A stretch of DNA of 64,000 bases from a virus (lineage: Duplodnaviria > Caudoviricetes): the IMG/VR virus record IMGVR_UViG_3300027365_000007, one strand, 5' to 3'. Under the pieces are notes generated by a model. The model did no database searches, was not told the origin of the DNA, and saw nothing but the letters and a program-made list of their open reading frames with translations. Shown here piece after piece: positions 27,059-30,772 of the stretch (the first letter of the stretch is position 1; every line of letters begins with the position of its first letter). The position numbers and the translations under genes were made by a program.

Positions 27059-27123
27059 TGCTTATACCCTTGTTTATTGATATTTATACAAGGATAAATA
27101 TTACTACATCAAAAGAGGTGAGT

Positions 27124-27852
27124 ATGACAACAAACAAAAATGAATTCAAAGTCAATACAAAATATGTACCGAAATTGAAGCCTGAAAACAAAGAGCAATC
27201 GAAGGCACTACAACACTTGGAGTCAGATGTTCCATATAATTTTCTTGTCGGACCTGCTGGATCTGGTAAGACCCTTTTCGCCACTGTATATGCCATTAAA
27301 AAATTTCTAGACGGTACATACCGTAAAATCGTAATTACCAGACCAGCCGTATCGGTTGACGAAGATCACGGTTTCCTTCCGGGGGACATTACAGCCAAAA
27401 TGCATCCTTGGATGCTTCCTATAATCGACGTATTCATGGAGTTTTTTGATGCAGATACCCTTGAAAGTATGATCAAGGAAGGTGTATTGGAAATTGCCCC
27501 TCTTGCCTACATGCGTGGTCGTAACTTAGGTGCTATCATGATAGATGAGAATAGCGACAAGCGCGGATTTATCGTATTAGCAGATGAGATACAAAACTCC
27601 ACTCCTGAACAAATGAAAATGCTACTGACTCGTCTTGGTAAAAATAGTAAGATGATCATCACGGGTGATTTAACCCAACATGATCGTGGGATGGACAATA
27701 ACGGTCTTCTAGATGCTTACAATCGACTTACCAAAAATTATGTAAGTGACGAATACATATCAATTGACAAATTCAGTAAGAAAAGTGTTGTGCGCAGTGA
27801 TGCTGTACAAAATATACTCAATTTATACCCAGAAGATGAGAGTGATGTATAA
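27124..27852 (+). CDS. phoH: PhoH-family ATPase
   Basis: GPAGSGKT, ITRPAV, GFLPG, APLAYMRGR, DEIQN and GDLTQHD motifs. Start set at 27124 because of the GAGGTG RBS. Confidence 0.95.
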   Translation: MTTNKNEFKVNTKYVPKLKPENKEQSKALQHLESDVPYNFLVGPAGSGKTLFATVYAIKKFLDGTYRKIVITRPAVSVDEDHGFLPGDITAKMHPWMLPIIDVFMEFFDADTLESMIKEGVLEIAPLAYMRGRNLGAIMIDENSDKRGFIVLADEIQNSTPEQMKMLLTRLGKNSKMIITGDLTQHDRGMDNNGLLDAYNRLTKNYVSDEYISIDKFSKKSVVRSDAVQNILNLYPEDESDV

Positions 27853-27930
27853 AAATTAACTTATAATTATTATTCGTTGGATATTATATAAATAATAGTA
27901 ACAATATACACAACGTAGGAGATATATGTT

Positions 27931-28143
27931 ATGACGCATGAAGAAAAATTTACATCACTACTTGGTTCACTGAGCGGTTCTGAGCAAGCATTTATGATCA
28001 ATATTCCGAGCGACATTGGGAACCCTATCAAGATGCTTTCACGCAACATCCCTGAAGGTGCTAAAGTGAAAATTGACGGCAGTGTAATGTATGTTAAAGC
28101 ACCTAGCTTTAGTCATACTGACGCAATTCTACTTCAAGTGTAA
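27931..28143 (+). CDS. Small hypothetical protein
   Basis: 70 aa; TATAAATA at 27887-27894, AGGAG RBS and its own terminator. Confidence 0.75.
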   Translation: MTHEEKFTSLLGSLSGSEQAFMINIPSDIGNPIKMLSRNIPEGAKVKIDGSVMYVKAPSFSHTDAILLQV

Positions 28144-28167
28144 CTAAGTACAGTAAATTGTATAACG

Positions 28168-28196
28168 AAAAAGAGAGGCATATGCCTCTCTTTTTT
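28168..28196. terminator. Bidirectional terminator between convergent genes
   Basis: AAAAAGAGAGGCA-TA-TGCCTCTCTTTTTT. Confidence 0.9.
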
Positions 28197-29625
28197 ATAC
28201 TGCCATAGGTGGTCTTTTGGCTTTCATAGGTTCTTTATTAACCTCTAGGCCAACAATATCAATATCTTCCCATTTCAAACCAATGACATCATCAATAGTA
28301 TTAAAATCTTTATTGATAACTAACTCTCCCGGTTTTCCTAGATCACGTTCAACAATTTCCTTTGCAAACTCAAGCTGATTCTCATATATATGAACATCGG
28401 TTAAATCACAAGACATATATCCAACGTTCATGTTCGCCAATTTTGCCATGCATATTAGATACAATGCGTATTGCTGACGTGCAAAGGATTCGCCGAATAC
28501 TACATCCAGACTTCGGTTCATAACTTTTAAATTAAGTGTCATAGAACCATCTTTTTCAGGAATGCATACAAATTGATGTGAATGCCAACAAGGCGTGAGT
28601 GCCATTTCTTTACTCTGCGATGGATTCCAGAAAGTAGTTAACATTCTTCGACTGTAAGGATTGTTAAGCAGGGTGTCACTGGTTTCTATAAGTTGATCGA
28701 CACCTTGGGTGTTTTTTTGTCTAGAAACCAAACGATATCCATTCCGCGTTATATTTTTGTCTATGTTTTTTTCAGACCATAAATCATAAAAGTTTTTTGG
28801 ATCAAAATTCATCTGTTTTGCAAATTTGACCGCATTATCAAATGTGTGAACTTCACCTGTTTCGACATCTTCGACGGTTATAGTATAGTTTTCTGGATGA
28901 TTTTGTGAATCGGTAATCCACATACAGTTTTCTATAGAATATTCAAATCCATTACCAATAATATCCTTATCCAAGACGTATCGGGTATGAGGATTGGCAA
29001 TCTTATCCTTCCAGCCCGGTATTTTTTTCACATCTTCTGAAAACTTCTTAAATTCAAGCCAATCATTACACACAGACACACCTTTTGCACCATATAAATG
29101 ATAACTACTTGAATCTCTGCGATAACAACGATCTATCATTCCCATCCATGTGGACTTTAGTGGATCATGCTCACTACCGTATCCATTTGCAATACCCAAA
29201 TACGTCGCACTAAGCCCTTCTTTTAGTCTTGGTTCAGGTTGAGTTATACTATCGTATTGACCATTAAAATTTCTCCACGCAAACCCATACGCTTTACCCA
29301 TTTCACCCTCACCAAGATAGTTTAGGTTTCGGTTATCTAGAAATTCACGACTAGTATTACCTTTCCAGAAGCCAACGCCTTTATCCTCAAGTAATTTGGT
29401 TTGAGTTTGTCCATGCATAAAGAACCAAAATTCTTCAAATGCAAGCCTTAATGGCGCTGATCTAAAAGTAGAAAACGGAAATTGCTTTCCTACATTCCAA
29501 ACTAGTTTACGGTCAAAGACCTTATAGCATCCAACACCCGTTCTATCAGGTGTTTTAACCCCATTTTCCAAAACATCTTTGATAAGGTTGATGTAACCTT
29601 GCTCATCATAGTATACTACTGACAT
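28195..29625 (-). CDS. thyA: Thymidylate synthase family protein with an in-frame HNH insertion
   Basis: DRTGVG, AYGFAWRNF, VDQL, RRMLTTFWNP, catalytic LTPCWH, RSLD and DVHIYENQ motifs. Confidence 0.9.
   Translation of the reverse strand: MSVVYYDEQGYINLIKDVLENGVKTPDRTGVGCYKVFDRKLVWNVGKQFPFSTFRSAPLRLAFEEFWFFMHGQTQTKLLEDKGVGFWKGNTSREFLDNRNLNYLGEGEMGKAYGFAWRNFNGQYDSITQPEPRLKEGLSATYLGIANGYGSEHDPLKSTWMGMIDRCYRRDSSSYHLYGAKGVSVCNDWLEFKKFSEDVKKIPGWKDKIANPHTRYVLDKDIIGNGFEYSIENCMWITDSQNHPENYTITVEDVETGEVHTFDNAVKFAKQMNFDPKNFYDLWSEKNIDKNITRNGYRLVSRQKNTQGVDQLIETSDTLLNNPYSRRMLTTFWNPSQSKEMALTPCWHSHQFVCIPEKDGSMTLNLKVMNRSLDVVFGESFARQQYALYLICMAKLANMNVGYMSCDLTDVHIYENQLEFAKEIVERDLGKPGELVINKDFNTIDDVIGLKWEDIDIVGLEVNKEPMKAKRPPMAV
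28705..29259 (-). mobile_element. In-frame HNH-type homing endonuclease plus NUMOD1/IENR-like domain inside thyA
   Basis: About 185 codons between WRNFNG and GVDQL, containing TWMGMIDRCY...YGAKGVSVCNDW..F..F...LDKD.......YSIENCMWI. Confidence 0.8.
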
Positions 29626-29695
29626 ATTAACCTCTTTTTACTTGCAATTTGATTAAGAATTATGTTAACATAGAATGGTTATAAGGAAAGGTCTT

Positions 29696-30772
29696 ATGTA
29701 CAAAAATATTTTTATAAATTGGTTTGAAAATGTATTCTCTGGTGAAGCGTTCCGCGATGACATGGTGGATACTGTCGAAGATTCTCCATATCATCGTGAA
29801 GACAACGTTTGGGTCCATACAGAAATGGTAGTTGACGCATACATTCGTTTGTCACCTGCTACATGGTCCAAAAAAGATCTCATGGGCGCATTGATGTGTG
29901 CATTTCATGATGTTGGCAAGCCTGCGAGTGAAGAAGTGAAACAGCGTGATAACGGTACTGAATATCGTCGCTACAATAACCACGACACTGTATCAGGTAA
30001 TATGTTTATTGATTATTATCTTCAGAATAAAGACCAACAGGTATTTTCTGACTTGAACTCTACCGACATTTATAACATTTGGGTTATGATTGCATATCAC
30101 ATGCCGTATAAGATTAAGCAAAAGCGCCTTGATAATCTCTCATACCATATGAATAAATTCGGACTTGTCAGTGTGTTTACCCGTGCGGTATATGCTGATG
30201 CAAAAGGCCGTATTAGTGATGATGAAGAGAAAACACTAAAGTCATCGAGTAAGTGGTGTGAGCGGTTCAACAAGATGTACGTTGAACATCCAGTGCGTAA
30301 CGATTCCAAGACTGTTATTGTTTTGTGTGGATGTTCTGGTATTGGTAAAAGTACTCTCTCTGAAAAGTTGATGAAATCATACAGCAATGAAAGCATTGTT
30401 TATCATTCTATGGATGACCTTCGCCTCAAGTGGTACTCGGATGATTATCGCGTTGCGTTTGAAAAAGCGTCACAAGATTCAGATTTCGGTAATAAAGTCA
30501 CTAGTGACTTTATGCATAAGCTGAAAGTCAATGACATTGTACTTGTAGACAATACTAATCTAACTTACAAGCGCCGTAACCAGTACTTGAACAACAATAA
30601 AAATACTGTTAGAATTGCATATGTTCTAGTCGCATCCTTTGACGAAGTTCTAAACCGTCAATCTAAGCGAACTGATAAAGAAATTGGTTATAAATCGATT
30701 GAACGTATGTACTATTCTCATCGCCCTGTTATCTACGGGGAAGTTGATGAGGTGAAACTAGTAGGATTCTAA
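29696..30772 (+). CDS. HD-domain phosphoesterase fused to a P-loop kinase (HD-Pnk-like RNA end-healing enzyme)
   Basis: YHREDNVWVHT...AFHDVGK...HD...YHM in the N-terminal half; GCSGIGKST, MDDLR and DNTNL..KRR in the C-terminal half. Start set at 29696 because of the AGGAAAGG RBS. Confidence 0.8.
   Translation: MYKNIFINWFENVFSGEAFRDDMVDTVEDSPYHREDNVWVHTEMVVDAYIRLSPATWSKKDLMGALMCAFHDVGKPASEEVKQRDNGTEYRRYNNHDTVSGNMFIDYYLQNKDQQVFSDLNSTDIYNIWVMIAYHMPYKIKQKRLDNLSYHMNKFGLVSVFTRAVYADAKGRISDDEEKTLKSSSKWCERFNKMYVEHPVRNDSKTVIVLCGCSGIGKSTLSEKLMKSYSNESIVYHSMDDLRLKWYSDDYRVAFEKASQDSDFGNKVTSDFMHKLKVNDIVLVDNTNLTYKRRNQYLNNNKNTVRIAYVLVASFDEVLNRQSKRTDKEIGYKSIERMYYSHRPVIYGEVDEVKLVGF

What the first reader, a model, noticed from the sequence alone, without database searches (positions are those of the whole stretch)
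28705..29259. Homing endonuclease in-frame inside ThyA with no intein or intron scaffold
Seen: about 185 uninterrupted codons between WRNFNG and GVDQL, where ThyA normally has only a short loop. They encode an HNH-like domain (WMGMIDRC...GVSVCNDW...LDKD...YSIENCMW) and a NUMOD1/IENR-like tail. There is no Cys/Ser at the start and no His-Asn|Cys/Ser/Thr at the end, so it is not an intein. The endonuclease fills the insert, leaving little room for a group I ribozyme core. Inferred: a splicing-independent selfish element tolerated in a surface loop, giving a ThyA-nuclease fusion that may home or cut competing phage thyA alleles.
Basis: partly seen in the sequence, partly recalled or inferred. Interest (0 to 1): 0.8.

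Follow-up and report, generated by a model that had tools for sequence, protein, structure and literature searches.

The report
Unspliced homing-nuclease module inside phage ThyA
A jumbo-phage thymidylate synthase gene carries a complete homing-endonuclease-like module in frame, with no intron or intein to remove it, and comparison with sister phages shows the module moves between thyA genes, so a selfish gene seems to persist in an enzyme by being tolerated rather than spliced out.

Summary
The minus-strand ORF 28195-29625 encodes a 476-aa thymidylate synthase (ThyA). Exactly 185 extra codons (window 28699-29253) sit between ...WRNFNGQY and DQL....

The insert is a confidently folded two-part module (pLDDT 95.6):
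- The core belongs to the published "IPA-HNH" family of putative phage homing endonucleases (hhalign 99.1% to ICP1 Gp59).
- The tail resembles the DNA-binding domain of I-HmuI.

I found no intein motifs and no Rfam intron. True inteins in other ThyAs of the same set were detected, so the intein check works.

The insert is under purifying selection (dN/dS 0.05) and keeps every family-invariant residue. Syntenic sister phages have the same thyA without it (291 aa). Insert-bearing alleles are not one clade (AU p 0.006). Two insert-bearing phages are 65% alike in flanking genes, but 88% alike in the 5' thyA flank and 84% in the insert. This is the signature of homing with co-conversion.

About 70 of the 150 best database clusters are ThyAs with this module, at two or more sites.

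Nuclease activity is unproven, and the canonical catalytic His is replaced by an invariant D-K-D motif.

I found no paper describing this in ThyA. The nearest precedent is the ShiLan and lone-LAGLIDADG insertions in phage methylases. This scan has reported the same phenomenon on other genomes.

The parts
28195..29625 (-). Whole thyA ORF with insert (476 aa plus stop)
   Evidence: AF2 model mean pLDDT 89.9. TM 0.91 by target to solved thymidylate synthases.
29254..29625 (-). ThyA N-terminal part, aa 1-124 (DRTG, EEFWFF, YGFAWRNF)
   Evidence: PDB thymidylate synthases align to aa 8-127. dN/dS 0.02 against L004.
29254..29800 (-). Co-conversion-like tract: 5' part of thyA plus about 175 nt upstream. 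It travels with the insert.
   Evidence: Window vs L004 (both filled) is 87.9% nt identical here and 65.0% in the genes beyond. Filled vs empty alleles are only 60-66% aa identical in codons 55-124, against 74-96% elsewhere.
28699..29253 (-). In-frame insert, aa 125-309 (185 codons). Boundaries are ambiguous by about 2 codons.
   Evidence: Absent from syntenic alleles L006, L008 and L009. dN/dS 0.046. Insert-only model pLDDT 95.6.
29185..29253 (-). N-terminal arm of the insert, aa 125-147 (QPxPxLxxG..ATYLG.ANG)
   Evidence: Conserved across ThyA-borne copies. pLDDT 97-98 in the insert model.
28894..29184 (-). IPA-HNH-type nuclease-like core, aa 148-244
   Evidence: hhalign of family alignment A4 vs ICP1 Gp59: 99.1%, E 8.4e-19. 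PHROG 2081. Weak fold match to HNH enzyme PacI: Z 4.3, rmsd 3.3 A, 79 aligned.
28963..28971 (-). D219-K220-D221, the most conserved motif of the family and the candidate active site
   Evidence: K and the second D are invariant and the first D is >=90% conserved in 111 family members. It lies where canonical HNH_3 has (D/N)-H.
28711..28893 (-). I-HmuI/NUMOD-like DNA-binding tail, aa 245-305
   Evidence: Profile of A4 vs PDB hits I-HmuI residues 108-170, E 6.9e-5. VIA Z 5.4, rmsd 2.3 A, 56 aligned. PF22083 is found in 18 of 111 family members.
28195..28698 (-). ThyA C-terminal part, aa 310-476 (DQL, SRR, TPCW with catalytic Cys346, RSLD, DVHIYEN, PPMAV) plus stop
   Evidence: The dimer interface is modelled here.

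Best explanation
The 555-nt segment is a homing-endonuclease-type selfish element that lives inside thyA without any splicing device. It encodes an IPA-HNH-family nuclease-like core plus an I-HmuI-type DNA-binding tail. It is translated in the ThyA frame and stays in the mature enzyme as an autonomous domain. It projects from a surface loop that is already variable in natural thymidylate synthases, so ThyA still folds and dimerises. During mixed infection the fusion protein (or its module) is inferred to bind and cut insert-free thyA alleles at or near the ...WRNFxxEF|DQL... site. Repair from the filled allele then copies the insert and some 5' flank into the recipient. Shown here: in-frame continuity, protein-level purifying selection, an independent fold, empty and filled alleles in syntenic phages, lateral transfer with a co-converted flank, and recurrence in many ThyA lineages at two sites. 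Inferred: nuclease activity, the cleavage target, and the absence of splicing in vivo.
For: Architecture: ThyA is split by 185 codons with no stop.

No splicing device:
- No Rfam hit at E<=10 in the window or at gathering score in four other filled loci.
- No intein or Hint Pfam hit and no conserved junction nucleophiles.
- The same library finds Hint plus LAGLIDADG inteins at another site of ThyAs P0060, P0063 and P0131, which also carry this insert.
- No terminal repeats or target duplications.

Folded and selected:
- Insert-only model pLDDT 95.6.
- dN/dS 0.046 at dS about 1.2.
- All family-invariant residues are present.

Identity of the module:
- Core matches ICP1 Gp59 of the IPA-HNH family at 99.1% (PMC10448857).
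- Tail matches the I-HmuI DNA-binding domain.
- Isolated-phage relatives are free-standing genes annotated as HNH or homing endonucleases.

Mobility:
- Syntenic phages L006, L008 and L009 have an 81-85% identical ThyA without the insert.
- Filled alleles are not monophyletic, AU p 0.006.
- Window vs L004 is 65% nt identical in flanking genes but 88% and 84% in the 5' tract and insert, Fisher 3e-28. L004 is closer to empty L006 outside the tract.
- The insert is 40-49% identical across ThyA backbones that are only 26-37% identical.
- About 70 of the best 150 representative clusters are ThyA plus insert, at two sites and in two size classes.

Host enzyme kept:
- ThyA core TM 0.91 to solved structures.
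- Homodimer model ipSAE 0.79 vs best control 0.00. The mark was reached by 20 of 30 proteins solved as pairs and 1 of 23 solved as single chains. Runs agree in at least 87% of contacts and partner pLDDT is at least 87.
- The interface lies only in the ThyA core. This pass may reflect likeness to solved thymidylate synthase dimers.
Against: - No experiment shows that IPA-HNH proteins cut DNA. The authors of that family say homing was not verified (PMC10448857).
- The canonical HNH general-base His is absent (D-K-D instead).
- Similarity to canonical HNH is weak: hhalign probability 2% to an HNH_3 protein, and PacI Z 4.3 only.
- No RNA or protein data exist for this phage, so a novel splicing route cannot be excluded.
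- Strong purifying selection and host-like GC would also fit a domesticated domain.
- The mosaic tract could arise from ordinary recombination.
Confidence: 0.7

Rival explanations
1. Domesticated domain. The module was once selfish but is now a fixed, useful part of ThyA, for example tethering the enzyme to DNA or the replisome, or regulating it. It no longer homes.
For: dN/dS 0.046, with dN as low as the enzyme's own. GC and GC3 equal to the host gene. Confident fold. The insertion point abuts the dimer interface. Retained in many ThyA lineages.
Against: Sister phages with the same gene order and an 81-85% identical ThyA lack it, so it is dispensable. Filled alleles are polyphyletic. The insert plus 5' flank is far more alike between two phages than their flanking genes are. 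The insert is more conserved than its host backbones. It uses two different sites.
Confidence: 0.15
2. Catalytically dead passenger. The module only binds DNA. It spreads by ordinary homologous recombination between co-infecting phages or through breaks made in trans by another nuclease, and it persists because it is harmless in this loop.
For: No catalytic His. The link to the HNH fold is weak. No tested member of the IPA-HNH family exists (PMC10448857). Trans-homing of defunct endonucleases is known in T4, where mobE mobilises I-TevIII (PMC2790892).
Against: The D-K-D motif and some 15 other positions are invariant or nearly so across 111 diverse members, which suggests an active site and not only a scaffold. 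No other copy of the family lies in the 64-kb window. Repeated invasion of the same two sites in very different thyA backbones needs site specificity.
Confidence: 0.1
3. Cryptic splicing element. The segment is removed at the RNA or protein level by a mechanism that current models do not recognise, so mature ThyA lacks it.
For: Absence of hits is not proof. Group I introns can carry ORFs fused to the upstream exon. No RNA or protein data were available.
Against: The frame is open and under codon-level purifying selection from the first to the last codon, junctions included. The frame is kept in more than 70 diverged clusters. There is no Rfam match at E<=10. There are no junction nucleophiles and no Hint fold, while real inteins in the same protein set are found. 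The insert folds as a nuclease-type module whose arms reach back to the ThyA core.
Confidence: 0.05

Closest known systems
IPA-HNH homing endonuclease genes of ICP1-like and other phages (Barth, Dunham & Seed 2023, PMC10448857)
   Same: The nuclease-like core is homologous (hhalign 99.1%, E 8.4e-19 to ICP1 Gp59 aa 54-170, including the LDKD motif). Both are variably present among close relatives and sit in or beside essential nucleotide and replication genes.
   Different: Described IPA-HNH genes are free-standing or intron-associated ORFs with a C-terminal AP2 domain. Here the module has an I-HmuI/NUMOD-like tail, has no start or stop of its own, and is translated inside ThyA.
ShiLan domain and the 'lone LAGLIDADG' insertion in actinobacteriophage DNA methylases (Arsenault, Gosselin & Gogarten 2025, PMC11855218)
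   Same: An insertion that keeps the host frame open, with no detectable intein or intron. Distribution is disjunct and homing-like. A predicted structure suggests the insert loops away from the host fold.
   Different: In ShiLan the HNH enzyme is read in another frame and the in-frame product is not a nuclease. Here the nuclease-like module is in the host frame. The lone LAGLIDADG was reported as vertically inherited. Here lateral transfer is shown. The host is a central metabolic enzyme, and the family is very widespread.
Inteins with homing endonuclease domains, including those in phage thymidylate synthases
   Same: An in-frame selfish element in a conserved enzyme, with sporadic distribution and spread by gene conversion.
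   Different: There is no Hint splicing domain and there are no junction residues. The insert is expected to stay in the protein. True inteins occupy a different ThyA site (after PCH) in P0060, P0063 and P0131.
Group I introns with endonuclease ORFs in phage thymidylate synthase genes (T4 td with I-TevI; Bacillus phage beta22; Bobb, PMC4528723)
   Same: The same host gene and the same logic of targeting a conserved gene. The DNA-binding tail is of the type used by intron endonucleases such as I-HmuI and I-TevI.
   Different: There is no ribozyme, no stop codon and a different insertion site. The cost is avoided by loop tolerance and not by RNA splicing.
I-HmuI (PDB 1u3e), HNH intron endonuclease of phage SPO1
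   Same: A collinear layout of a nuclease motif followed by a NUMOD-like DNA-binding domain. The tail matches in sequence (E 6.9e-5) and in fold (Z 5.4).
   Different: I-HmuI has the canonical D-H...N HNH site and is a free intron ORF. Here the core is the D-K-D variant with a larger helical N-terminal part.

Membership tests
Thymidylate synthase ThyA (PF00303) | Sequence and fold of the thymidylate synthase family | tested here: met
   Pfam 6.6e-57. PDB thymidylate synthases 2.6e-44. Model TM 0.91 by target.
Thymidylate synthase ThyA (PF00303) | Catalytic Cys and the phosphate-binding Arg residues, including the pair donated across the dimer | tested here: met
   C346 (TPCW), R28, R326, R327 and R371 are invariant or nearly so. 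R326 and R327 contact S372 and R371 of the other chain in the dimer model.
Thymidylate synthase ThyA (PF00303) | Asn (E. coli N177) that selects dUMP | tested here: not met
   The residue is Ala in GESFARQQ. The same holds in the insert-free sister alleles, so it is a clade trait unrelated to the insert. The substrate or product may differ from classical ThyA.
Intein | Cys/Ser/Thr (or Ala) at the first residue and His-Asn plus Cys/Ser/Thr at the C-junction | tested here: not met
   The junctions read ...NFNGQY|DSIT... and ...NTQGV|DQL. They are not conserved as nucleophiles across 26 homologues.
Intein | Hint splicing domain | tested here: not met
   No Pfam hit in the insert at E<=1. Positive control: Intein_splicing, Hint_2 and LAGLIDADG_3 are found at a different site in P0060, P0063 and P0131. 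The insert model shows nuclease-type and NUMOD-type parts only.
Group I (or II) self-splicing intron | Ribozyme core detectable by covariance model | tested here: not met
   No intron family at E<=10 in 27500-30500. No match at gathering score in L001, L002, L004 or L005. The frame is open and under codon-level selection throughout.
IPA-HNH homing endonuclease family | Homology of the atypical HNH-like domain to ICP1 Gp59, Gp115-116 and Gp209 | tested here: met
   hhalign A4 vs Gp59: probability 99.1%, E 8.4e-19, 116 columns.
IPA-HNH homing endonuclease family | C-terminal AP2 DNA-binding domain; stand-alone ORF | tested here: not met
   The tail is I-HmuI NUMOD-like and not AP2. There is no start or stop of its own. 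AP2 occurs in some relatives.
HNH / His-Me finger nucleases | beta-beta-alpha-metal fold | tested here: inconclusive
   PacI Z 4.3, rmsd 3.3 A, 79 aligned. Foldseek top hit is I-HmuI at E 0.55. hhalign to a canonical HNH_3 protein gives probability 2%, but it aligns ...GNGFEYSIENCMWITDSQN to ...GNKNNFSVDNLEWVTPKEN.
HNH / His-Me finger nucleases | Catalytic His (general base) at the end of the first strand | tested here: not met
   The position holds invariant D-K-D (aa 219-221) in all 111 family members.
Homing (mobile) endonuclease element | Presence or absence polymorphism at one site among close relatives, incongruent with the host gene tree | tested here: met
   Empty alleles are found in syntenic phages. 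Two changes are forced on the backbone tree, AU p 0.006.
Homing (mobile) endonuclease element | Co-conversion of flanking host sequence with the element | tested here: met
   Identity is 88% and 84% in the 5' tract and insert, against 65-77% in the flanks, for window vs L004, Fisher 3e-28. Codons 55-124 group by filled or empty state.
Homing (mobile) endonuclease element | Site-specific cleavage of the empty allele by the encoded enzyme | not testable with these tools
   This needs purified protein and an empty-site substrate.

The most novel reading that the evidence does not exclude
The ThyA-nuclease fusion is itself the active homing enzyme. The obligate ThyA dimer holds two IPA-HNH modules side by side next to the two-fold axis, because the insertion point abuts the modelled dimer interface. 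Two nicking modules would then make a double-strand break in insert-free thyA. This would be a widespread way of life for homing endonuclease genes beside introns, inteins and free-standing genes. In it the host enzyme is both shelter and scaffold, and the nuclease uses a His-less D-K-D active site.
Probability: 0.3. Interest if true: 0.85.

Novelty: new variant of a known kind. Interest (0 to 1): 0.7.

Why it matters
Homing endonuclease genes are thought to survive in essential genes only by hiding in self-splicing introns or inteins, or by sitting between genes. Here a complete nuclease-type module stays in the finished protein of a central DNA-precursor enzyme. It still shows the population signatures of an active selfish element, and it does so in many phage lineages. 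If confirmed, three things follow:
- It adds a splicing-free route for selfish elements, and for natural domain insertion into enzymes.
- It marks a permissive loop of thymidylate synthase that is useful for protein engineering.
- It offers a tractable system (ThyA activity and cleavage of the empty allele) to test whether the large IPA-HNH family, which lacks the catalytic His, really cuts DNA.

It also warns annotators that over-long "thymidylate synthase" genes in phages are composite.

Tried and rejected
- **Group I or II intron:** an Rfam evalue-mode scan of 27500-30500 gave only noise. A gathering-score scan of four other filled loci gave nothing.
- **Intein:** there are no Pfam or NCBIfam hits in the insert and no junction residues.
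- **Transposon-like ends:** there are no terminal inverted repeats or target duplications at 28699/29253.
- **Internal expression signals:** promoter-like hits are no more frequent than in shuffles, 7 found against 6.5 expected. I saw no convincing internal ribosome-binding site by eye.
- **Hidden ORF in another frame (ShiLan-type):** only a 42-aa antisense ORF overlaps the insert.
- **Paralogues of the module elsewhere in the 64-kb window:** none (tblastn). No whole genome is held for this window.
- **RNA evidence:** no RNA holder is listed among public runs. Laying contigs of four DNA runs gave only short, low-depth pieces and no contig that joins across the insert. This gave no information on splicing or on empty alleles in those samples.
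- **Foldseek against PDB with the insert model:** nothing at E<=0.001.
- **Pfam on ten free-standing family members:** no canonical HNH domain elsewhere in them, so the 'HNH' label of the PHROG families rests on this domain itself.
- **Literature:** searches for a description of ThyA with an in-frame endonuclease found none in the held library.

Full report
**1. What is there**

The minus strand of the window carries one uninterrupted ORF, 28195-29625, of 476 codons.
- Pfam recognises thymidylate synthase in two separated stretches (PF00303, 6.6e-57).
- Solved thymidylate synthases align to residues 8-127 and 307-460, with nothing between.
- The segment between has no Pfam or NCBIfam family. 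It does match several PHROG families annotated as HNH endonuclease (phrog_2081 1.8e-34).

Alignment with insert-free sister alleles fixes the extra segment at residues 125-309. That is exactly 185 codons, window 28699-29253, between ...WRNFNGQY and DQL....

**2. Not an intron, not an intein, not a transposon**

- A permissive Rfam scan of 27500-30500 found no intron family, even at E<=10.
- Four other loci with filled thyA genes gave nothing at gathering score.
- Across 26 aligned ThyA-plus-insert proteins, the junction residues are not conserved as nucleophiles and no His-Asn precedes the C-junction.
- The intein test has a positive control. Three ThyAs from the same search (P0060, P0063, P0131) carry this same insert. 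They also carry, at another site just after the catalytic PCH motif, a real intein that Pfam finds at once (Intein_splicing, Hint_2, LAGLIDADG_3).
- The insert ends carry no inverted repeats or target duplications.
- No sizeable ORF lies in another frame.

**3. What the insert is**

AlphaFold2 on an alignment of 111 family members gives a very confident model of the insert alone (pLDDT 95.6). The full-length model is also confident (pLDDT 89.9, pTM 0.83), and its ThyA core superposes on solved synthases at TM 0.91.

The last 60 residues (245-305) are a DNA-binding module of the I-HmuI/NUMOD type:
- The family profile hits I-HmuI residues 108-170 at E 6.9e-5.
- The fold matches at Z 5.4, rmsd 2.3 A over 56 residues.
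- PF22083 is found in 18 of 111 relatives.

The core (148-244) is homologous to the N-terminal domain of Vibrio phage ICP1 Gp59 (hhalign 99.1%, E 8.4e-19). Gp59 is a founding member of the 'IPA-HNH' putative homing endonucleases of Barth, Dunham and Seed (PMC10448857). They describe the domain as too divergent for the Pfam HNH_3 model, and they say that homing was not tested.

My own link to canonical HNH is weak:
- PacI matches at Z 4.3.
- hhalign to a canonical HNH_3 protein gives probability 2%, although the motif alignment is sensible.

The place of the catalytic His is taken by D219-K220-D221. This is the most conserved motif of the whole family. The window's copy keeps every invariant and near-invariant family residue. 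So the module is an intact member of a homing-endonuclease-type family. That it cuts DNA remains an inference.

**4. It is translated and selected**

Against the closest filled relative (L004), the insert has dN/dS 0.046 at dS about 1.2. Its dN (0.054) lies between those of the two ThyA parts (0.017 and 0.094). GC and GC3 equal those of the host gene. This fits a functional protein segment, not decaying junk or an RNA-level element.

**5. It is mobile**

Four lines of evidence support this.

*Empty sites.* A search with the ThyA C-terminal part found insert-free ThyAs of 291-292 aa that are 81-85% identical. That is as close as the nearest filled relative. Their contigs include a 461,710-bp marine scaffold. 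They show the same gene order as the window: Suv3-like helicase, 150-aa gene, 358-aa kinase-like gene, thyA, 71-aa gene, phoH.

*Polyphyly.* On a backbone tree with the insert removed, the window and P0005 are sister to four empty alleles (100/99). The third filled allele, P0006, is sister to an empty one in another subclade (97/90). Holding the filled alleles together is rejected (AU p 0.006).

*Lateral transfer with a co-converted flank.*
- The window and L004 are 65.0% identical in the upstream genes and 72.9% downstream.
- They are 87.9% identical in the 547 nt just 5' of the insert and 84.1% in the insert (Fisher 3e-28).
- In the flanking genes L004 is closer to the empty L006 (76.5%) than to the window.
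- At protein level, codons 55-124 group by filled or empty state: 60-66% identity across states, against 83-97% within the filled state. The rest of ThyA does not do this.

*Breadth.*
- The insert is 40-49% identical across ThyA backbones that are only 26-37% identical.
- An exhaustive profile-free search found 26,197 representative clusters of the domain family. About 70 of the best 150 are ThyAs carrying it in frame.
- They fall into a short class (about 185 aa, as here) and a long class (about 240-275 aa, as in Bacillus phage 015DV002).
- At least five clusters, plus Tenacibaculum phage PTm1, use a second site upstream of the YGxQW motif.
- From textbook knowledge, both sites are loops known to vary in length among natural thymidylate synthases: the eukaryotic insert and the Lactobacillus casei small domain.

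**6. The host enzyme**

Catalytic Cys346, the phosphate-binding arginines and the C-terminal PPMAV are kept.

A two-copy model gives ipSAE 0.79 against 0.00 for the best of three controls.
- The mark was reached by 20 of 30 proteins solved as pairs and by 1 of 23 solved as single chains.
- The runs agree in at least 87% of contacts, and partner pLDDT is at least 87.
- The interface lies wholly in the ThyA core, with R326 and R327 reaching the partner's active site as in known synthases.
- Because many thymidylate synthase dimers are solved, this pass may only show likeness.

Residues 120-122 and 308-311, which flank the insert, are part of that modelled interface. The two modules would therefore emerge near the two-fold axis. 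This prompts the scaffold idea given as the novel case.

**7. Explanation and rivals**

*Best reading (0.7).* This is a splicing-free homing element that is tolerated as a domain insertion and is probably spread by its own nuclease.

*Rivals:*
- A domesticated domain (0.15). It fits the selection data but not the empty alleles, the polyphyly or the transfer tract.
- A catalytically dead passenger moved by recombination or in trans (0.1). It fits the missing His, but not the invariant D-K-D motif or the repeated site-specific invasion.
- An unrecognised splicing mechanism (0.05).

**8. Known or new**

I found no paper describing an endonuclease module translated inside ThyA.

The nearest published cases are the ShiLan domain and the 'lone LAGLIDADG' insertion in actinobacteriophage methylases (PMC11855218).
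- In ShiLan the HNH enzyme is read in a different frame.
- The lone LAGLIDADG was reported as vertically inherited.

The nuclease family itself is published as free-standing IPA-HNH genes (PMC10448857). I therefore class this as a new variant of a known kind.

This scan has already reported the same phenomenon on several other genomes. Those notes led me to the IPA-HNH paper, and I tested that link here.

**9. Limits**

- No RNA or protein data exist for this phage.
- No whole genome is held for the window.
- Nuclease activity, the target site and in vivo homing are untested.

Noticed in passing
window 27070-27852 (+) versus L006:9204-10985: The phoH gene two genes from thyA is 260 aa in the window. 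In the syntenic 461-kb marine phage scaffold it is 593 aa with a LAGLIDADG_3 hit, which is probably an intein. Neighbouring genes in this phage group thus carry different selfish elements in different isolates.
   Followed up: partly
window 28465-28520 (aa ~369-387 of ThyA): The dUMP-selecting Asn (E. coli N177) is Ala in the motif GESFARQQ, and PCH is PCW. The same holds in the insert-free sister alleles L006, L008 and L009. It is therefore a trait of this ThyA clade and not a result of the insert. The enzyme may act on another pyrimidine or make a modified one.
   Followed up: partly
window 29675-30772 (+): The gene that diverges from thyA encodes a 365-aa protein with an HD-like N-terminal part and a P-loop kinase part (AAA_33, weak, in relatives). 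It is always next to thyA in the syntenic contigs. It could belong to a nucleotide or DNA-modification pathway together with the odd ThyA.
   Followed up: no
P0060, P0063, P0131 (metagenomic ThyAs of 871-909 aa): These thymidylate synthases carry two selfish elements at once. One is the unspliced IPA-HNH module in the loop after YGxQW. The other is a canonical Hint plus LAGLIDADG intein right after the catalytic PCH motif.
   Followed up: partly
P0231 (540 aa; same PPMAV-type ThyA backbone, 55% identical): A long-class (about 250 aa) version of the module sits at the same site in a ThyA of the window's own subfamily. This suggests a separate invasion by a different lineage of the element.
   Followed up: no
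L001 (Tenacibaculum phage PTm1, 1989-3572) and L002 (Bacillus phage 015DV002, 1980-3674): Isolated phages in GenBank already hold such composite genes. They are annotated simply as 'thymidylate synthase (and pyrimidine hydroxymethylase)' or, in RefSeq, 'HNH endonuclease'. PTm1 uses the second insertion site.
   Followed up: partly
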